Positions 1 through 5,281 of a stretch of DNA of 6,259 nucleotides are shown here, in pieces (within the stretch, counting starts at the first letter, position 1; each line of letters opens with the position of its first letter). Location of the stretch: sequence record NC_007827.1; one strand, 5' to 3'. This DNA comes from Escherichia phage NC29. A model generated the notes under the pieces. That model did not search any database. It worked only from the letters and a program-made list of their open reading frames with translations, and was not told the DNA's origin. The position numbers and the translations under genes are program-made.

Positions 1-64
1 TTATTGACAACTCCCAATCCCTTATGAGACTCTTGCTTCAATTAAATGACGTAGGAGTCTTTTT

Positions 65-433
65 ATGAAACCCGCTCATCGCCTTACTCATCCAATTCTT
101 GGTTCTTGGTTGTTTAAGTGTCCTGTTTATATTCGTTATGAGTCGCTTCATCATGGTCGCCTTATCAAGGTCCGTGCTGTTCGTGATTTGTCCCCTCGTC
201 AACGATTGATTGCTAATCCTAAGAATTGCTTTGACGTTGTTATTGCTGAAATTGATCTTACTTATGAAACCGTTACTTGGTTTGATTTTATGGATGAGGA
301 ATATGCCGCGTGTACCCCCGAGGTTATGCAGCTTCTCATTTCCTCTATTGACTCTTCTGATGTTATTCGTTCTGTAGAAGACCCGACCGTTGATTCAGGT
401 GATATGGATTGGCTTTATGAAATTGTGGAGTAA
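65..433 (+). CDS. hypothetical protein, H-A spacer ORF1 (122 aa; basic N-terminal half, strongly acidic C-terminal half)
   Basis: ATG at 65 preceded by SD-like TAGGAG (52-57, 7-nt spacing); uninterrupted 122-codon frame ending TAA 431-433; third codon positions strongly T-biased like the core phage genes; no resemblance I can recognise to phiX174 proteins A-H. Confidence 0.6.
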   Translation: MKPAHRLTHPILGSWLFKCPVYIRYESLHHGRLIKVRAVRDLSPRQRLIANPKNCFDVVIAEIDLTYETVTWFDFMDEEYAACTPEVMQLLISSIDSSDVIRSVEDPTVDSGDMDWLYEIVE

Positions 434-529: not shown

Positions 530-702
530 AGTATTTTAGCCTTGTGGATGAACACTATGCTTATTGCCCTGATTCGCGCATTTTGCACATCACTCGTAGT
601 CGTGTTTCTGACCCTCGGTATGAGCGTCGTTTTCTTACTGATGAGGAGCATCTTGCACTTCTGGATTGGTTGAAAAATCGCCCAACTTATATTAATTCTT
701 GA
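526..702 (+). CDS. hypothetical protein, H-A spacer ORF3 (58 aa, MKYFSLVDEHYAYCPDSRILHITRSRVSDPRYERRFLTDEEHLALLDWLKNRPTYINS)
   Basis: ATG 526-528 overlaps the ORF2 stop TGA 527-529 (ATGA coupling); AGGA (515-518) at 7-nt spacing; T-biased third positions; stop TGA 700-702. Found by hand translation. Confidence 0.5.
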   Translation: MKYFSLVDEHYAYCPDSRILHITRSRVSDPRYERRFLTDEEHLALLDWLKNRPTYINS

Positions 703-728
703 CAAGTCTTTGATACACCGTCTATATT
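699..728 (+). promoter_or_regulatory. sigma70-like promoter upstream of gene A (pA-like): TTGACA - 18 nt - TATATT
   Basis: -35 TTGACA at 699-704 (6/6 consensus), 18-nt spacer, -10 TATATT at 723-728 (5/6); position equivalent to phiX174 pA just upstream of gene A. Confidence 0.45.
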
Positions 729-759
729 GCCCTCATAGTGATTCTACGAGGGCTTTTTT
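729..759 (+). terminator. intrinsic terminator-like hairpin plus T6 tract (T_H-like) immediately upstream of the gene A start
   Basis: GCCCTC (729-734) pairs with GAGGGC (748-753) and TAG (736-738) with CTA (744-746), 5-nt loop, followed by TTTTTT 754-759; GC-rich stem plus U-tract is the classic rho-independent architecture. Confidence 0.55.
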
Positions 760-761
760 GC

Positions 762-2246
762 ATGGCTACTGAAAACTTCTTCGATGTTGTTAAGACCGTC
801 TGGTCCCACGCTACGGCTAAGCACGCCCATCTTCGTATGGCTGTTCAGGTTGATAACCGCAGTCGCCTTCTCTCTGACCTCGTTTATCAGTTGGAAAAAC
901 GTCTTTCTGAAGAAACTCATCTGGATGATGAGACTTATTCCCTTTATGAATCTCAAACTGGTTTCTTGGAAGACCATATGTCTCTGGTTCGGAAGTGTGC
1001 TGCCCAACTTGATAATAGTAACACTATAGACCACCGTACCTCTTTGGATGCCGAATGTGTTTTCCTGTTTGAAATGATTTGCCCGGGTGTTCGCTACGGT
1101 AAAACGTTGAATTCTCTTTGGACTAAGTATGTTGCTCAATGGCCTGAGAAGTTAATTCGTCAAGAGTTAGACATGGTTAAGCCTTTATCCTTTAAGGATG
1201 AGGTTGCTAGGTACATGGAGAAGATGCAGGAAAAAACACGCAAAAATCGCATGACTCAAAAAGTAATTAATGAGATGCGTATTGCTCACCAAAAGGGCTG
1301 GTTTTTCGTATTTGATACTTTGACACTTGCTGATGACCGTTTGCAGGCTTTTAATGAAAACCCCAATGCTCTTCGTGATTATTTCAGGACTGTTGGTCGA
1401 GCTGTTCTGCGCGCTGAAGGTCGTTCGGTTAAGGATTCCTACAACGACTGCTATCGCTATCTTTGTGTGCCGGAGTTTGGAGGTCAGCACGGTCGTCTTC
1501 ATTGGCACGTTGTGCATATGGTGCGGACTCTTCCTTTGGGAAGTCACGACCCTAATTTCGGTCGCAAGGTACGTAATTATCGCCAGATTAACTCGTTCCG
1601 TGGCATGTGGCCTTATGGCTTCACGCAACCGATAGCTGTACGCTATCAACATGATGCTTATTCTCGCAAAGGTTGGTTGTGGCCTGTTGACAAATCAGGT
1701 AAAGCAATGCAGAGTAAGCCCTATCAGGCGGTCGCATGGTATGTGACCAAGTATGTAGCCAAGCAATCTGACCAGCGTCAGAAAGCTATTACTGAGAGAC
1801 AAAAAAAATGCAAGAATCCACTTATGGCAATCTGTCTGAAAAAGGAATTCAGAGTTCGCAGCAGCCGGAAGCTCGGAATGGAGTTACCGTCGATGGCGCA
1901 TCTCAGCAACAAAGTGCTTCTGGAGCTGAGTCGAATCAGCTTCGATTCCAGCCCTCTGTATCAGATAGTGAAAGAGAACGCCAAAAAGCAATTGACCTTG
2001 AACATCGGCGCGCTGCCTTTGCACGTCATTTTGGATGTGCGCCCGGAAGTGAGAAGTATGTTGAAAAATATCCGTCGTTTGATGAAAAAGACACCCGAGT
2101 TCAATTGGCAGAGTTCTATCGCTTCAATGACGGTCACCTTAAAAAATGGGGATATTTCTGATGAAGCACGTCAATACATTATTGATGCAGGAATTACGCC
2201 TTTTGATTTGCGAGCTAAAGCGACTCAAACTTTCGGCGGTAAGTGA
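762..2246 (+). CDS. A: replication initiation protein A (rolling-circle HUH endonuclease)
   Basis: Alignable along most of its length to phiX174 gpA as I remember it: HUH motif in HGRLHWHVVHMVRTLP, twin catalytic tyrosines in YVTKYVAKQSD, and GWFFVFDTLTLADDRL. The track ORF begins at GTG 738; I prefer the first ATG (762, MATENFF...). Stop TGA 2244-2246. Confidence 0.9.
   Translation: MATENFFDVVKTVWSHATAKHAHLRMAVQVDNRSRLLSDLVYQLEKRLSEETHLDDETYSLYESQTGFLEDHMSLVRKCAAQLDNSNTIDHRTSLDAECVFLFEMICPGVRYGKTLNSLWTKYVAQWPEKLIRQELDMVKPLSFKDEVARYMEKMQEKTRKNRMTQKVINEMRIAHQKGWFFVFDTLTLADDRLQAFNENPNALRDYFRTVGRAVLRAEGRSVKDSYNDCYRYLCVPEFGGQHGRLHWHVVHMVRTLPLGSHDPNFGRKVRNYRQINSFRGMWPYGFTQPIAVRYQHDAYSRKGWLWPVDKSGKAMQSKPYQAVAWYVTKYVAKQSDQRQKAITERQKKCKNPLMAICLKKEFRVRSSRKLGMELPSMAHLSNKVLLELSRISFDSSPLYQIVKENAKKQLTLNIGALPLHVILDVRPEVRSMLKNIRRLMKKTPEFNWQSSIASMTVTLKNGDISDEARQYIIDAGITPFDLRAKATQTFGGK
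1015..1044 (+). other. viral (+) strand replication origin, 30-nt gpA recognition/nick site inside gene A
   Basis: CAACTTGATAATAGTAACACTATAGACCAC matches the phiX174 30-nt origin CAACTTGATATTAATAACACTATAGACCAC (from memory) at 28/30 positions, both differences in the AT-rich spacer; the expected nick is between G1021 and A1022. Confidence 0.75.
1224..2246 (+). CDS. A*: A* (in-frame internal restart of A), start codon tentative
   Basis: phiX174 A* begins at an internal Met (MKSRRGF...) about 25 residues before the conserved GWF motif; the equivalent position here is flanked by in-frame ATGs at 1215, 1224 and 1251. None has a convincing SD, so the exact start is not determinable from sequence. 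Confidence 0.3.
   Translation: MQEKTRKNRMTQKVINEMRIAHQKGWFFVFDTLTLADDRLQAFNENPNALRDYFRTVGRAVLRAEGRSVKDSYNDCYRYLCVPEFGGQHGRLHWHVVHMVRTLPLGSHDPNFGRKVRNYRQINSFRGMWPYGFTQPIAVRYQHDAYSRKGWLWPVDKSGKAMQSKPYQAVAWYVTKYVAKQSDQRQKAITERQKKCKNPLMAICLKKEFRVRSSRKLGMELPSMAHLSNKVLLELSRISFDSSPLYQIVKENAKKQLTLNIGALPLHVILDVRPEVRSMLKNIRRLMKKTPEFNWQSSIASMTVTLKNGDISDEARQYIIDAGITPFDLRAKATQTFGGK
1808..2161 (+). CDS. B: internal scaffolding protein B (encoded within A in another frame)
   Basis: 117 aa; C-terminus ...RVQLAEFYRFNDGHLKKWGYF parallels phiX174 gpB ...RIQPAEFYRFHDAEVNTFGYF; acidic, Q/S-rich N-terminal half; entirely nested in gene A. Confidence 0.85.
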   Translation: MQESTYGNLSEKGIQSSQQPEARNGVTVDGASQQQSASGAESNQLRFQPSVSDSERERQKAIDLEHRRAAFARHFGCAPGSEKYVEKYPSFDEKDTRVQLAEFYRFNDGHLKKWGYF

Positions 2247-2322: not shown

Positions 2323-2479
2323 GCAGCTTATGTTTTTGACTAAAGCTGACTTTACCAATGATGATGAAAAATGGCTTAATGCCTTTGGTAATTTGCTCCG
2401 TCAGTGGTTTCAGATTGAGGATTGGAAAGGTAATCACAAAAAATTGCTTGACGATTTGAAAAACAGGCATTATATTTAA
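2273..2479 (+). CDS. C: protein C (DNA replication switch / packaging)
   Basis: ATG 2273 with AGGAG (2261-2265) at 7-nt spacing; 68 aa; ...TKADFTNDDEKWLNAFGNLLRQWFQIEDW resembles phiX174 gpC ...KTDALDEEKWLNMLGTFVKDWFRYESH. The track ORF starts at GTG 2243; ATG 2273 preferred. Confidence 0.8.
   Translation: MLSSTRYYASYRATLTKQLMFLTKADFTNDDEKWLNAFGNLLRQWFQIEDWKGNHKKLLDDLKNRHYI
2448..2476 (+). promoter_or_regulatory. sigma70-like promoter at the 3' end of gene C (pD-like): TTGACG - 17 nt - TATATT
   Basis: -35 TTGACG 2448-2453 (5/6), 17-nt spacer, -10 TATATT 2471-2476 (5/6) overlapping the last codons of C; best promoter match I found in the window; pD lies within C in phiX174. Confidence 0.5.
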
Positions 2480-2712
2480 CTCATAGATAAATGAAGCAGT
2501 GGTGCAAAGTAGTTTATCTAAGTGGTAAGTTCAGTGAAGGGTGACCCGCTCTAAGTAGCTGAAGGGTGTTGGATGTAAGGACTCCGCGATTGACTGGTTT
2601 ATACTGGAACACTATCGGGTCAGTGAAGTGGCTGCTGAGAAATAGCCCTCTAGCTTTACGAAGACTAGGCTACATCGCGAACACCATTGTTACTTTTTTA
2701 TGGAGGATTTAT

Positions 2713-3171
2713 ATGTCTAATCTTGTTGCTACCGATGTTAATTTTGCTACCTCTGTTGCTGCTCTGAAGATGCTTCAGGCTTCTGCTGTTCTTGATATCA
2801 CTGAGGAAGATTTCGATTTTCTGACTGGTGATAAGATTTGGATTGCTACTGACCGCAATCGTGCTCGTCGTTGTGTTGAGGCGTGTGTTTATGGAACGCT
2901 GGACTTTGTTGGATACCCTCGCTTTCCTGCTCCTGTTGAGTTTATTGCTGCCGTCATTGCTTATTATGTTCATCCCGTCAACATTCAGACGGCCTGTCTC
3001 ATCATGGAAGGCGCTGAGTTTACGGAGAACATTGTTAATGGCGTCGAACGTCCGGTTAAAGCCGCTGAACTCTTTGCGTACACCTTGCGTGTTAAGGCTG
3101 GATTCAAAGAAACGGTTCTGAGTGCTGAAGATAATGCTCGTCAGAAACTTCGTGCAAGTGGAGTTATGTAA
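2713..3171 (+). CDS. D: external scaffolding protein D
   Basis: 152 aa; ATG 2713 with GGAGG (2702-2706) at 6-nt spacing; near-identical over long stretches to phiX174 gpD (LQASAVLD.TE.DFDFLT...WIATDR.RARRCVEACVYGTLDFVGYPRFPAPVEFIAAVIAYYVHPVNIQTACLIMEGAEFTEN). Confidence 0.95.
   Translation: MSNLVATDVNFATSVAALKMLQASAVLDITEEDFDFLTGDKIWIATDRNRARRCVEACVYGTLDFVGYPRFPAPVEFIAAVIAYYVHPVNIQTACLIMEGAEFTENIVNGVERPVKAAELFAYTLRVKAGFKETVLSAEDNARQKLRASGVM
2891..3121 (+). CDS. E: lysis protein E (embedded in D, +1 frame)
   Basis: 76 aa; MERWTLLDTLAFLLLLSLLLPSLLIMFIPSTFRRPVSSWKAL... is nearly identical to the phiX174 E N-terminal transmembrane domain, including the conserved Pro21. Confidence 0.85.
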   Translation: MERWTLLDTLAFLLLLSLLLPSLLIMFIPSTFRRPVSSWKALSLRRTLLMASNVRLKPLNSLRTPCVLRLDSKKRF

Positions 3172-3172
3172 T

Positions 3173-3247
3173 ATGAAAAAGGCTCGTCGTTCTCCTTCTC
3201 GTAAGAAAGGTGCCCGTCTCTGGTATGTAGGCGGTTCTCAATTTTAA
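3173..3247 (+). CDS. J: small basic DNA-binding/packaging protein J (24 aa)
   Basis: Hand translation MKKARRSPSRKKGARLWYVGGSQF; the C-terminus KGARLWYVGG.QF matches phiX174 gpJ, while the short 24-aa length is typical of alpha3/G4-type J; starts 1 nt after the D stop. Confidence 0.85.
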   Translation: MKKARRSPSRKKGARLWYVGGSQF

Positions 3248-3252
3248 TTAAT

Positions 3253-3278
3253 GGGCTTCGGCCCCTATAAGGATTTTT
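3253..3278 (+). terminator. cUUCGg tetraloop hairpin in the J-F spacer (T_J-like terminator or mRNA 3' stabiliser), overlapping the F ribosome-binding site
   Basis: GGGC (3253-3256) / TTCG loop / GCCC (3261-3264), then CTATAAGGATTTTT; SD TAAGGA 3268-3273 sits 7 nt before the F ATG. phiX174 has a terminator in the J-F spacer. Confidence 0.35.
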
Positions 3279-3280
3279 AA

Positions 3281-4564
3281 ATGTCAAATGTACAAACTTC
3301 CGCTGAGCGTATCCCTCATGACCTGTCTCATCTGGTTTTTGAAGCAGGCAAAATTGGTCGTTTAAAAGTTGTTTCTTGGACTCCTGTTGTTGCAGGTGAT
3401 TCTTTTGAGCTTGATATGATTGGCGCTATTCGCCTCTCCCCGCTTCGTCGTGGTCTTGCTGTTGACTCTCGCGTTGACTTGTTCACGTTTTATGTTCCTC
3501 ATCGTCATGTATATGGTGAGCAGTGGATTGAGTTTATTAAGGAAGGTGTCAATGCTCCACCGTTGGCTCCTGTTCAGTGCTCTCGTGGTTGGGATAGTGC
3601 GCAGTATCTCGCTACTATTCCGTCTTCTAACTTAAAGGTTCCTAAGTTCCTTCATCAAGGTTACTTGAACATTTACAATAACTATTTTAAAGCTCCGTGG
3701 ATGGATGACTTGACTTATGCCAACCCATCTAATATGGAAGGTGAAGATGTTCGTTTTGGTGTTCGTGCATGTAATTTAAAAACTATCTGGACTGCTCCGC
3801 TTCCTCCAGATACTGAGACTTCTCATTCTATGGAGACCGAGACCAACTCCATTGACATTATGGGTTTACAGGCCGCTTATGCTCAATTACATACCGAGCA
3901 GGAGCGTGATTACTTCATGACTCGTTATCGTGATATTGTTAACGAATTTGGTGGTAGTACTTCTTATGATGCGGATAATCGTCCTTTGCTTGTTATGCAT
4001 TCTGAGTTCTGGGCCTCAGGCTATGACGTCGACGGCACCGACCAAAGCTCTCTCGGTCAGTTCTCCGGTCGTGTTCAGCAGACGTTTAAGCATTCAGTAC
4101 CGCGATTCTTCTGTCCTGAGCATGGCACTATGTTCACACTCGCATTGGTCCGCTTCCCTCCGACTCATGAAATGGAGATGCATTACTTAGTTGGTAAAGA
4201 AAATTTGACTTATACTGATCTGGCTTGTGATCCTGCTTTGATGGCTAACTTGCCTCCGCGTGAGGTTAATATGTCTCAGTTCTTCCATTCTGGAAGTGCT
4301 AGTGCTAAGTTTAAGATCGCTGAGGGTCAGTGGTATCGTATGCAGCCTGACCGCGTTGCATTGCCGTATAACTATCTTGATGGTTTTCCGTTCTATAGTG
4401 CGATTCCGTCTCATGATATTAAGCAGCGTGTTCTGGTTAATACTGATAACTATGATGAGGTTTTCCAGTCTATGCAGCTTGCACACTGGAATATGCAGAC
4501 TAAGTTTAACTGCACGATTTATCGTAATATGCCGACCACTCGTGATTCTATTATGACCTCTTGA
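3281..4564 (+). CDS. F: major capsid protein F
   Basis: 427 aa; long blocks match phiX174 gpF (MSN.QT.AER.PHDLSHL, LRLSPLRRGLA.DS.VD.FTFYVPHRHVYGEQWI, QGYLNIYNNYFKAPWM, SIDIMGLQAAYA.LHT.QERDYFM.RYRD, SYDADNRPLLVM, GYDVDGTDQ.SLGQFSGRVQQT.KHSVPRFF.PEHGTMFTLALVRFPPT, TTRDSIMTS). Confidence 0.95.
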   Translation: MSNVQTSAERIPHDLSHLVFEAGKIGRLKVVSWTPVVAGDSFELDMIGAIRLSPLRRGLAVDSRVDLFTFYVPHRHVYGEQWIEFIKEGVNAPPLAPVQCSRGWDSAQYLATIPSSNLKVPKFLHQGYLNIYNNYFKAPWMDDLTYANPSNMEGEDVRFGVRACNLKTIWTAPLPPDTETSHSMETETNSIDIMGLQAAYAQLHTEQERDYFMTRYRDIVNEFGGSTSYDADNRPLLVMHSEFWASGYDVDGTDQSSLGQFSGRVQQTFKHSVPRFFCPEHGTMFTLALVRFPPTHEMEMHYLVGKENLTYTDLACDPALMANLPPREVNMSQFFHSGSASAKFKIAEGQWYRMQPDRVALPYNYLDGFPFYSAIPSHDIKQRVLVNTDNYDEVFQSMQLAHWNMQTKFNCTIYRNMPTTRDSIMTS

Positions 4565-4570
4565 TTATGT

Positions 4571-4587
4571 GGGGCTTCGGCCCCCTT
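4571..4587 (+). terminator. cUUCGg tetraloop hairpin in the F-G spacer (T_F-like terminator or mRNA 3' stabiliser)
   Basis: GGGGC (4571-4575) / TTCG loop / GCCCC (4580-4584), then CTTT; followed by SD TAAGGA 4588-4593, 7 nt before the G ATG; near-duplicate of the J-F module. Confidence 0.35.
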
Positions 4588-4600
4588 TAAGGATTTGATT

Positions 4601-5146
4601 ATGTTTCAAGTTTATGTAGCTAAGCATGTTGCTCCTTTTACTTCTATGAACCGTACCTTTTCTATCTCTCCTGCTGCTGCCCCGCAGGTTGTCAATTCTG
4701 GTGAGATTGTTGCAGGTCGTTCTACTTTTCGTATTGCTTCCTCTATTGGTTCTGCTTCTAATGGTAATGGTTTCGCATTCGTTCAGATGATGGACCCTAA
4801 CTCTCCTGATTCTCAACAGGTTTTCTCTGTTGCTGCGTCGCTATCTTTTAGTGTTGACTCGAATTATGTTCCTTGCGTTGTTCGTTTTGAAAGTAGTTTC
4901 TCTCAGCCTGGTCAATTTGCTATTGCTGAGGCTGATTTTATTCCGGTTGAGTCGTCAGCTCTTTCTGCTCGTGCGCTTAGCGTTCGTGATTGTGTTACTG
5001 TTGATGTTAAGCCTCGCGCTGAAGGTAATAATGTTTTTGTTGGACTGTTCTTGTCTTCTGCCGCCGCTAATGCTGGTAATGTTACTGGTGTCATTTCTAT
5101 GGCTCAGGTTGACCATGAAGTTACAGCTTTGCAGCCTCTTAAATAA
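4601..5146 (+). CDS. G: major spike protein G
   Basis: 181 aa from ATG 4601 (track ORF starts at TTG 4595); MFQ... N-terminus and CVVRFESS, DCVT.DV.PR..GNNV.VG, and C-terminal LQPLK match phiX174 gpG. Confidence 0.9.
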   Translation: MFQVYVAKHVAPFTSMNRTFSISPAAAPQVVNSGEIVAGRSTFRIASSIGSASNGNGFAFVQMMDPNSPDSQQVFSVAASLSFSVDSNYVPCVVRFESSFSQPGQFAIAEADFIPVESSALSARALSVRDCVTVDVKPRAEGNNVFVGLFLSSAAANAGNVTGVISMAQVDHEVTALQPLK

Positions 5147-5160
5147 AAGGCCGCCGCACT

Positions 5161-5256
5161 CTCGGTTATATGCCTGCCCAGTGTAGGGCGGACCGAGCCG
5201 TACGGAGATACCCGTGAAACTAGGAACGTGGAAGGCGTTAGCCGCCTTCCCTCCTG
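5161..5256 (+). other. candidate complementary (-) strand origin: three consecutive stem-loops in the GC-rich G-H spacer
   Basis: Hairpins: CTCGGT 5161-5166 / ACCGAG 5192-5197 enclosing 5174-5179 / 5186-5191; ACGG 5202-5205 / CCGT 5212-5215; GGAAGGCG 5230-5237 / CGCCTTCC 5243-5250 (perfect 8-bp stem, 5-nt loop); CTG at 5254-5256 just 3' of the last hairpin. G4-type phages prime at a multi-hairpin origin with DnaG alone. Confidence 0.4.
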
Positions 5257-5281
5257 CTAAGCCCAAAGGAGACTTTCAGCT

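What the first reader, a model, noticed from the sequence alone, without database searches (positions are those of the whole stretch)
699..764. Promoter, intrinsic terminator and the gene A ribosome-binding site are nested in 65 nt
TTGACA-18-TATATT (699-728) is followed immediately by a GC-rich hairpin (729-753) and a T6 tract (754-759), then the A start ATG at 762. The only SD-like element for A (GAGGG 748-752) is the 3' arm of the terminator stem. The terminator would end the upstream late transcript (H plus ORF1-3). A transcript starting at pA (near 735) would lack the 5' arm, leaving the SD free, whereas read-through transcripts would have the SD sequestered. That gives a plausible mechanism for keeping A expression low and promoter-specific, as known for phiX174 gene A. 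The GTG at 738 (track start) is in the loop of the hairpin and less likely to be the initiation codon.
Basis: partly seen in the sequence, partly recalled or inferred. Interest (0 to 1): 0.5.

Follow-up and report, generated by a model that had tools for sequence, protein, structure and literature searches.

The report
Gene A promoter-terminator-RBS overlap, phiX174-type
This 65-base stretch is the alpha3-group version of the overlapping promoter, terminator hairpin and ribosome-binding site that sits in front of replication gene A in phiX174 and G4, so it is real and conserved but already known.

Summary
TTGACA(699-704)-18-TATATT(723-728) abuts a hairpin at 729-753 (-13.8 kcal/mol). T6 (754-759) and ATG 762 of gene A follow, and the only SD-like sequence (GAGGG, 748-752) lies in the 3' arm.

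The window is a complete alpha3-like microvirus genome, about 93% identical to NC3. The same layout occurs in all but one of 16 distinct alpha3-like sequences, and also in phiX174, G4 and more distant Bullavirinae. Hexamers and stems are conserved; the spacer and loop vary.

In phiX174 this element is the documented pA-TH composite. Its record places the transcription start on the first base after the 6-nt 5' arm, which predicts A735 here.

Opening the SD costs 11-14 kcal/mol in read-through RNA and 3-6 kcal/mol in RNA starting at 735.

ATG 762 is the start. GTG 738 is unique to this genome, and six relatives carry an in-frame TGA between the two codons.

Caveats:
- A second hairpin with a T-run lies directly after gene H, so late transcripts meet a terminator earlier.
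- NC35 lacks the -10 and the 5' arm, so the element is dispensable.
- No transcript mapping was found for alpha3-like phages in the library searched.

Verdict: already known, low interest.

The parts
699..704 (+). -35 hexamer TTGACA of the gene A promoter (pA). It contains the TGA stop (700-702) of the upstream ORF 526-702.
   Evidence: Invariant in 15 of 16 alpha3-like sequences; phiK has TTGGCA.
705..722 (+). 18-nt promoter spacer. Its length is conserved and its sequence is free to vary.
   Evidence: 12 of 18 positions vary among relatives while the length stays 18; L032 has one extra T, which the alignment places within the T-run of the -10.
723..728 (+). -10 hexamer TATATT, directly abutting the hairpin.
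   Evidence: 1 of 6 positions vary; ID32 has TATAGT.
735..735 (+). Predicted transcription start (A), 7 nt after the -10 and the first base after the 6-nt 5' arm.
   Evidence: Inferred from the phiX174 record, where the TSS is annotated at 3962 = A, the first base after GCCTCC. Not mapped in any alpha3-like phage.
729..753 (+). Terminator-type hairpin: outer stem 729-734/748-753, A735/C747 mismatch, inner stem 736-738/744-746, loop 739-743.
   Evidence: dG -13.8 kcal/mol, z -5.2. 93.5% of cells paired across 16 sequences, with T-A to A-T and mismatch-to-pair changes.
748..752 (+). Shine-Dalgarno-like GAGGG for gene A, inside the 3' arm. The core GAGG lies 10 nt before the ATG.
   Evidence: Invariant in relatives except NC35, which has GAGGA. 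Opening energy 12.5-12.8 vs 2.8-6.3 kcal/mol.
754..759 (+). T6 tract (U-run of the intrinsic terminator), which also serves as the SD-to-ATG spacer.
   Evidence: T4 to T6 in relatives.
762..2246 (+). Gene A (replication initiation protein), starting at ATG 762.
   Evidence: Pfam Phage_GPA, E = 2.7e-58. The ATG matches the annotated A start in 13 relatives. The GTG is absent elsewhere.
4..67 (+). Upstream sister module directly after the H stop: TTGACA 4-9, hairpin 28-59 (extendable to 26-61), T5 60-64, ATG 65 of ORF1, with SD AGGAG in the 3' arm. It is probably the first terminator met by late transcripts.
   Evidence: dG -16.5 kcal/mol, z -5.7. Conserved in 13 genomes. Second-best hairpin+T-run on the + strand. 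Best match to the phiX174 pA-TH sequence: 44 of 57, z 6.2.

Best explanation
Bases 699-764 are the alpha3-group orthologue of the phiX174/G4 composite 'pA-TH-RBS(A)' element.

A sigma-70 promoter (TTGACA-18-TATATT) sits so that its -10 touches the 5' arm of an intrinsic-terminator hairpin. RNA polymerase starting at this promoter begins at about A735, just past the 6-nt GC-rich 5' arm. Its transcript therefore cannot form the hairpin. It is not terminated at the U6 tract, and its Shine-Dalgarno (GAGG, 748-751) is comparatively open for initiation at ATG 762.

RNA arriving from upstream carries both arms. This includes read-through of the late transcripts and any ORF1-3 message. The hairpin forms, part of the RNA is released at U6 with a hairpin at its 3' end, and in the remainder the gene A SD is locked in the stem.

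The net effect is to reset transcription at the start of gene A. It also largely uncouples synthesis of A protein from the heavy late transcription.

Shown here: the sequence anatomy, its conservation, its homology to the phiX174 and G4 elements, and the in-silico difference in SD accessibility.
Inferred: the transcription start at 735, actual termination, and the translational discrimination.
For: Anatomy and statistics.

Conservation: the window is an alpha3-like genome. The layout is present in 15 of 16 distinct alpha3-like sequences, with conserved hexamers and stems and a variable spacer and loop. Stem pairing is 93.5%. All changes are wobble, mismatch-to-pair or compensatory (T-A to A-T in 5 sequences), against 35-56% pairing for slid partners.

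Deeper conservation: the same order occurs in phiX174, G4, ID18-like contigs and a contig whose A protein is only 52% identical. That order is -35, a 17-18 nt spacer in phiX174 and G4, a -10 abutting GCCYYC, a 3' arm carrying GGAGG or GAGGG, a T-run, then ATG. In the two more distant contigs (L037, L040) the -35/-10 spacing and hexamers were only read by eye and look weaker. Between genera, stem pairs 4 and 5 are swapped compensatorily (T-A, C-G versus C-G, T-A), and ID32 carries the wobble intermediate.

Transcription start: the phiX174 record annotates the TSS at 3962, directly after the 5' arm.

Literature on phiX174:
- TH lies between H and A, overlaps pA, and the combined element changes transcript level 0.29-fold (bioRxiv 10.1101/2020.03.05.979765).
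- Complete mutagenesis finds that the TH 3' stem overlaps the gene A RBS and is mutation-sensitive (bioRxiv 10.64898/2026.07.25.740675).

SD accessibility: opening energy is 11-14 kcal/mol in read-through RNA and 3-6 kcal/mol in RNA from the predicted start, in 8 alpha3-like genomes and in phiX174.
Against: - No 5' or 3' end mapping was found for any alpha3-like phage in the library searched.
- NC35, deposited as a coliphage isolate genome, has a 29-nt deletion removing the spacer, the -10 and the 5' arm. No replacement promoter or terminator was detected, so the element is not essential.
- In phiX174 only 13% of 5'-stem mutations are detrimental against 63% in the 3' stem. Under laboratory conditions fitness therefore depends on the RBS much more than on hairpin formation.
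- The T-run shrinks to T4 in NC3 and L023.
- When 100 nt of coding sequence are included, the SD of the pA transcript is still predicted to pair with distant partners, at 4-6 kcal/mol to open. It is 'freer', not 'free'.
- Low gene A expression in phiX174 is attributed in the literature mainly to mRNA instability.
Confidence: 0.8

Rival explanations
1. The hairpin acts only as a terminator and 3'-end stabiliser for upstream transcripts. Its overlap with the gene A SD is a by-product of genome compaction. Hiding the SD in read-through RNA has no regulatory role, because little RNA reads through and A protein levels are set by promoter strength and mRNA decay.
For: - phiX174 mutagenesis shows the 5' stem tolerates most changes (13% detrimental) while the RBS-bearing 3' stem does not (63%).
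- Low gene A expression in phiX174 is attributed to mRNA instability.
- NC35 lacks the 5' arm.
- Here too the 3' arm is more conserved than the 5' arm: 2/10 versus 4/10 variable positions.
Against: - The 5' arm is still kept as a pairing partner in three genera through compensatory and wobble changes.
- The -10 always abuts the 5' arm, so the predicted start falls exactly behind it. That placement is hard to explain without selection on which RNAs can fold.
- The predicted accessibility difference is large, 6-10 kcal/mol.
- NC35 lost the promoter -10 and the 5' arm together, as expected if the two are functionally coupled.
Confidence: 0.3
2. The hairpin is a structural signal in the single-stranded viral DNA, for example for replication, packaging or protein binding. 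Its resemblance to a terminator is incidental.
For: The + strand DNA also folds significantly (-7.0 kcal/mol, z -5.7). Hairpins in other microvirus intergenic regions serve as complementary-strand origins (the phiX174 TF region binds PriA).
Against: - The hairpin is followed by a T-run and sits exactly between a promoter and a start codon in all three genera.
- The homologous phiX174 hairpin is the documented TH terminator.
- NC35 lacks it.
- The G4 record places its complementary-strand origin elsewhere, between F and G.
Confidence: 0.04
3. Gene A starts at GTG 738. The hairpin then lies inside the coding region, and the TTGACA/TATATT match is a chance promoter-like site.
For: GTG 738 is in frame with no stop before ATG 762 in this genome. 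One 11/12 promoter match somewhere in a genome of this size occurs in about 6% of shuffles.
Against: - GTG is replaced by GTT, GGT or GTA in all 15 other distinct alpha3-like sequences.
- Six of them (ID32, ID62, L026/27, L029, L030, L031) have an in-frame TGA between the two positions.
- No SD precedes 738.
- With a start at 735 the GTG would be 3 nt from the 5' end.
- Every annotated A gene starts at the ATG.
- The promoter hexamers are conserved while the spacer varies.
Confidence: 0.02

Closest known systems
phiX174 pA promoter / TH terminator / gene A RBS composite (H-A intergenic region, nt 3927-3983)
   Same: Same order and geometry: TTGACA, a 17-18 nt spacer, a -10 abutting a 6-nt GC-rich 5' arm, a 3' arm carrying the SD, T6, then ATG. 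The TSS is annotated on the first base after the 5' arm. The overlap of TH with pA and with the gene A RBS is described in the literature.
   Different: - The phiX174 -10 is degenerate (TTTCAT) and depends on an upstream TRTG extension. Here it is TATATT with no TG.
- The SD is GGAGG 7 nt from the ATG in phiX174, and GAGG(G) 10 nt away here.
- The phiX174 stem is a perfect 8 bp with a 3-nt loop. Here it is 6 bp, a mismatch, then 3 bp, with a 5-nt loop.
- In phiX174 the element follows gene H directly. Here about 690 nt with three ORFs and a second hairpin module lie between.
G4 and G4-like (ID18-type) H-A intergenic element
   Same: TTGACT-18-TAATAT-GCCTCC-loop-GGAGGC-TTTT-C-ATG. This is the best sequence match to the window element: 43 of 58, z 5.6. 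It shares the 18-nt spacer.
   Different: The stem is only 6 bp with an 8-nt loop, the T-run is shorter (T4), and the SD is GGAGG 6 nt from the ATG.
The same element in published alpha3-like genomes (alpha3, phiK, St-1, WA13, NC3 and others)
   Same: Orthologous and nearly identical. WA13 differs only in the spacer and loop.
   Different: This genome alone has GTG at 738 and a TGATT loop. No promoter or terminator features are annotated in the records retrieved.
IS10/Tn10 protection from external promoters (Davis, Simons and Kleckner 1985, as cited in PMC13181058; mechanistic details from my own knowledge)
   Same: Same logic. Transcripts entering from outside contain both halves of an inverted repeat and sequester the translation start. 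Transcripts from the element's own promoter begin inside the repeat and stay translatable.
   Different: Unrelated sequence and biology. In IS10 the structure is not also an intrinsic terminator with a U-tract. This is an analogy only, not membership.

Membership tests
Bullavirinae pA-TH-RBS(A) composite element (phiX174 type) | Lies on the + strand in the non-coding stretch immediately 5' of replication gene A | tested here: met
   Gene A identified by Pfam Phage_GPA, E = 2.7e-58. The element ends at its ATG.
Bullavirinae pA-TH-RBS(A) composite element (phiX174 type) | Sigma-70 -35 and -10 hexamers spaced 17-18 nt | tested here: met
   TTGACA-18-TATATT, 11/12, best in the genome. Expected 0.06 per shuffle. 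Hexamers conserved while the spacer varies.
Bullavirinae pA-TH-RBS(A) composite element (phiX174 type) | The -10 abuts the 5' arm of a GC-rich hairpin, so the transcription start falls just 3' of that arm | tested here: inconclusive
   The geometry matches phiX174, where the TSS is annotated at 3962. The start in this phage is predicted (A735), not measured.
Bullavirinae pA-TH-RBS(A) composite element (phiX174 type) | Hairpin followed by a T-run (intrinsic terminator TH) | tested here: met
   dG -13.8 kcal/mol, z -5.2, T6. Among the top 3 of 33 T-runs. Pairing conserved.
Bullavirinae pA-TH-RBS(A) composite element (phiX174 type) | The gene A Shine-Dalgarno is embedded in the 3' arm | tested here: met
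   GAGGG 748-752 lies inside 748-753. The equivalent overlap is reported for phiX174.
Bullavirinae pA-TH-RBS(A) composite element (phiX174 type) | Sequence homology to the phiX174 and G4 elements | tested here: met
   41 of 57 (z 3.1) to phiX174 and 43 of 58 (z 5.6) to G4. The sequences are short, so support is moderate.
Bullavirinae pA-TH-RBS(A) composite element (phiX174 type) | Measured initiation and termination activity in infected cells | not testable with these tools
   Needs 5'/3' end mapping. No such data for alpha3-like phages were found in the library.
Rho-independent (intrinsic) terminator | GC-rich stem, short loop, and a U-tract directly after the stem | tested here: met
   The stem base has five G-C pairs and one U-A pair, and U6 begins at the next base. 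The stock scan did not list it because of its limit on loop size and mismatches.
Translational control by SD sequestration that depends on the transcript's 5' end (IS10-like logic) | The SD is paired in RNAs from upstream promoters and open in RNAs from the element's own promoter | tested here: inconclusive
   In silico only: 11-14 versus 3-6 kcal/mol opening energy. Residual long-range pairing is predicted. No expression data.

The most novel reading that the evidence does not exclude
Alpha3-like phages carry two tandem copies of the ancestral 'TTGACA / hairpin with SD in the 3' arm / T-run / ATG' module. One lies directly after H (4-67) and one directly before A (699-764), and together they bracket a three-ORF cassette. 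This suggests the cassette was acquired or insulated by duplication of the pA-TH module.

In the A-proximal copy, promoter and hairpin would form an obligate pair. The promoter would exist chiefly to make an RNA that escapes the hairpin. That would explain why NC35 could lose the -10 and the 5' arm together in a single 29-nt deletion. If so, translation of A protein really is promoter-specific.
Probability: 0.3. Interest if true: 0.35.

Novelty: already known. Interest (0 to 1): 0.15.

Why it matters
The result confirms that the compact promoter-in-terminator design ahead of gene A is an ancestral, conserved feature of all three Bullavirinae genera, not a peculiarity of phiX174. It also fixes the gene A start at ATG 762 in this genome.

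For annotation, the track start at GTG 738 should be moved. The element should be labelled pA / TH-like terminator / RBS(A).

The only modestly new angles are the second module after gene H and the natural NC35 deletion. Both offer ready-made material for testing whether hiding the SD in read-through RNA matters.

Tried and rejected
- GTG 738 as the start: rejected. It is unique to this genome, and six relatives have an in-frame TGA downstream of it.
- Stock terminator scan: did not report the hairpin because of its loop limit. A custom scan of all T-runs replaced it.
- Rfam at E <= 1 over the whole window: nothing in 690-770. The only hit was a chance-level Chlorobi-1 match at 3142-3184.
- Widening the comparison:
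  - Genome contigs gave no relatives.
  - Metagenome contigs gave only 4.
  - The phiX174 and G4 A-protein scans gave 1 and 7 loci, most cut at the contig start.
- Replacement promoter or terminator in NC35: none found.
- 'SD completely free in the pA transcript': not upheld. With 100 nt or more of coding sequence the SD is predicted to find distant partners that shift with transcript length. I therefore report opening energies rather than free versus bound.
- Strand of selection from wobble pairs: inconclusive. The C-to-T changes favour the + strand, while the A/C mismatch would be a G-T wobble on the - strand.
- Family searches for ORF1-3: no PHROG or Pfam hit.
- Older primary papers could not be read. 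Rokyta 2006 is not held in the library. No search was made for Sanger 1977/78, Godson 1978, Kodaira 1992 or Brendel 1985. What I attribute to any of them comes from memory and is marked as such.
Full report
**What the window is.** The 6259-nt window is a complete alpha3-like microvirus genome (Bullavirinae, Alphatrevirus). It aligns end to end with NC3, ID32, NC35, WA13, WA45, ID21 and ID62 at 90-93% identity, with NC28 and MG945254 at about 89%, and with alpha3, phiK, St-1 and Lilleven at about 85%. The gene order is the same: A, B, K, C, D, E, J, F, G, H. The ORF beginning in the finding is gene A (Pfam Phage_GPA, E = 2.7e-58).

**Check of the observation.** All coordinates are right:
- TTGACA 699-704, an 18-nt spacer, and TATATT 723-728.
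- GCCCTC 729-734 pairing with GAGGGC 748-753.
- T6 at 754-759 and ATG at 762.
- GTG at 738, in frame with the ATG.

RNA folding adds one detail. There is an inner 3-bp helix (736-738 with 744-746) beyond an A735/C747 mismatch, which leaves a 5-nt apical loop. The hairpin has dG -13.8 kcal/mol and z = -5.2, and none of 200 shuffles folds as well.

The promoter is an 11/12 match and the best in the genome. Matches that good arise 0.06 times per dinucleotide shuffle. The stock terminator scan missed the hairpin because it allows only 3-8 nt loops. My scan of all 33 runs of four or more T on the + strand found three that follow a hairpin below -12 kcal/mol. This one has the longest T-run, and the next best hairpin is only -8.1.

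**Conservation within the alpha3 group.** I collected 13 annotated relatives and 7 further contigs, giving 16 distinct versions of the region. Fifteen keep the full layout.

Variability by element (NC35 excluded; this tally used the 12 other complete genomes aligned, not the seven extra contigs):

| Element | Variable positions |
|---|---|
| -35 | 1/6 |
| Spacer | 12/18 (length kept) |
| -10 | 1/6 |
| 5' arm | 4/10 |
| Loop | 5/5 |
| 3' arm | 2/10 |
| T-run | 2/6 |

This is the pattern expected of a working promoter and a working hairpin. The higher conservation of the 3' arm fits a second role as the SD.

On the named structure, 93.5% of cells pair, against 35-56% when partners are slid. Every change is compatible with pairing:
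- C-G to U-G wobble in 5 cells.
- T-A to A-T in 5 sequences.
- The A/C mismatch becoming A-U in 6 sequences or G-C in 1.

The number of independent events is small, so this is supportive rather than strong covariation.

**Comparison with phiX174 and G4.** The same architecture is present in the other two genera:
- phiX174: TTGACA-17-TTTCAT-GCCTCCAA-ATC-TTGGAGGC-TTTTTT-ATG.
- G4: TTGACT-18-TAATAT-GCCTCC-CATCAAAC-GGAGGC-TTTT-C-ATG.

ID18-like contigs and a contig whose A protein is only 52% identical also have the hairpin with GGAGG in the 3' arm, a T-run and the ATG.

Between genera, stem pairs 4 and 5 are exchanged compensatorily: GCCTCC/GGAGGC versus GCCCTC/GAGGGC. ID32-type sequences (GCCTTC/GAGGGC) carry the wobble intermediate. 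The phiX174 record annotates a transcription start at 3962. That base is the A immediately after the 6-nt 5' arm and 7 nt after the -10. The equivalent base here is A735.

**What the literature says.**
- In phiX174, TH lies between H and A and overlaps pA. The combined pA-TH element lowers transcript level 0.29-fold and 'resets' transcription before gene A (bioRxiv 10.1101/2020.03.05.979765).
- TH is computed to be the most stable of the four phiX174 terminator hairpins, and the pA transcript is low largely because it is unstable (PMC3335065).
- A complete-mutagenesis preprint reports that the pA -35 and -10 are mutation-sensitive. It also reports that the TH 3' stem overlaps the gene A RBS. 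It attributes 63% of detrimental mutations to the 3' stem and 13% to the 5' stem (bioRxiv 10.64898/2026.07.25.740675).

I recall that the original phiX174 and G4 sequence papers noted that A mRNA starts inside the terminator hairpin. I could not retrieve them, so that point rests on memory.

**Mechanism.** I computed the free energy needed to make the SD single-stranded in two RNAs. One starts 100 nt upstream of the ATG (read-through). The other starts at the predicted transcription start.
- In this window the values are 12.5-12.8 versus 2.8-6.3 kcal/mol, depending on how much coding sequence is included.
- The same gap, 11-14 versus 3-6 kcal/mol, appears in alpha3, WA13, ID32, St-1, ID62, NC28 and phiK.
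- In phiX174 the gap is 10.5 versus 1.9 and 10.6 versus 2.7 kcal/mol with 35 and 60 nt of coding sequence. It narrows to 6.6 versus 3.4 with 100 nt.

With long 3' extensions the SD of the short RNA is predicted to find distant, shifting partners. It is much freer, not free.

The SD itself is weak: a four-base GAGG core 10 nt from the ATG, against GGAGG at 7 nt in phiX174. That fits a gene needed in small amounts.

The most likely working model has two parts. Transcripts from pA escape both termination and SD masking. Transcripts from upstream are partly terminated at U6, and the remainder translate A poorly. The logic resembles the way IS10 protects its transposase from outside promoters (Davis et al. 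1985, cited in PMC13181058). That comparison is an analogy only.

**Start codon.** GTG 738 exists only in this genome. The other 15 sequences have GTT, GGT or GTA there. Six have an in-frame TGA between that position and the ATG. All annotated A genes start at the ATG. ATG 762 is the start.

- A second module lies directly after the H stop. It has TTGACA at 4-9 and a hairpin at 28-59, extendable to 26-61 (-16.5 kcal/mol, z = -5.7). T5 follows at 60-64, and ATG 65 of ORF1 comes next, with AGGAG in the 3' arm. It is conserved in all 13 complete genomes aligned and is the closer match to phiX174 pA-TH (44 of 57, z = 6.2). Late transcripts meet this hairpin first, so the 729-759 hairpin handles what reads through it plus any ORF1-3 message.
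- NC35 has a 29-nt deletion that removes the spacer, the -10 and the 5' arm. No promoter-like or terminator-like site remains in its first 900 nt. The element is therefore dispensable. Losing the promoter and the 5' arm together is consistent with the two being functionally coupled, but that is an inference.
- The phiX174 mutagenesis indicates that hairpin formation contributes little to laboratory fitness compared with the RBS.

**Verdict.** The feature is the alpha3-group orthologue of a long-known phiX174 and G4 element, so novelty is low. Experimental mapping in an alpha3-like phage is still missing.

Noticed in passing
window 4-67: A second promoter-like / hairpin / T-run / ATG module lies directly after the H stop. 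It has TTGACA 4-9, a hairpin at 28-59 (-16.5 kcal/mol, z -5.7), T5 at 60-64 and ATG 65 of ORF1, with SD AGGAG in the 3' arm. It is conserved in all 13 complete alpha3-like genomes aligned and resembles phiX174 pA-TH more closely than the finding does (44 of 57, z 6.2). Its -10 is poor.
   Followed up: partly
window 2480-2712 (core 2493-2649): The C-D intergenic region is 233 nt here, against 26-73 nt in relatives. The extra roughly 157 nt are absent from every alpha3-like locus fetched. They are 75-79% identical (E = 5e-23) to an unannotated stretch in about 75-kb E. coli podophages (Kuravirus MN03, vB-EcoP-XT32/XT18/XT73, FS2B, KarlSchell_Bas89), where they likewise lie just upstream of a gene start. 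There is no match in E. coli genomes, no Rfam hit, and folding is not significant (z -0.24). This looks like a horizontally acquired non-coding leader upstream of gene D.
   Followed up: partly
L005 (NC35) around 703/704: A natural 29-nt deletion removes the pA spacer, the -10 and the 5' arm of the hairpin. The 3' arm reads GAGGAC. No promoter-like or terminator-like site is detected in 1-900 of that genome.
   Followed up: yes
window 65-433, 437-529, 526-702: Three ORFs lie between H and A. ORF1 and ORF3 show clear third-codon-position bias in variable sites (44/34/99 and 13/7/30) and are intact in most relatives, so they look like real genes. Neither has a Pfam or PHROG match. ORF2 (30 aa) is ambiguous. 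The alpha3 and St-1 records have a 1-nt frameshift in ORF1. The ORF3 stop TGA lies inside the -35 TTGACA, and phiK's TTGGCA removes both the consensus and the stop.
   Followed up: partly
window 5147-5281: A 135-nt GC-rich G-H intergenic region, similar in length in relatives, contains a GGAAGGCG...CGCCTTCC hairpin. From memory it is probably the primase-dependent complementary-strand origin described for St-1, phiK and alpha3. Not tested here.
   Followed up: no
window 2448-2476: The second-best promoter match in the genome, TTGACG-17-TATATT (10/12), lies at the end of gene C. This is the expected position of the late promoter pD.
   Followed up: no
window 3253-3264 and 4571-4584: Two near-identical GC hairpins, GGGCTTCGGCCC and GGGGCTTCGGCCCC, lie after J and after F. 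Each is followed by TAAGGATTT and the next gene's ATG. They resemble the phiX174 TJ and TF terminators with an adjoining RBS, and they lack a proper T-run.
   Followed up: no
window 4903-4939: A stable hairpin (-13.7 kcal/mol) followed by T4 lies inside gene G. It is the only other hairpin with a T-run on the + strand comparable to the two intergenic ones. It may be a chance coding-region structure or an internal weak terminator.
   Followed up: no
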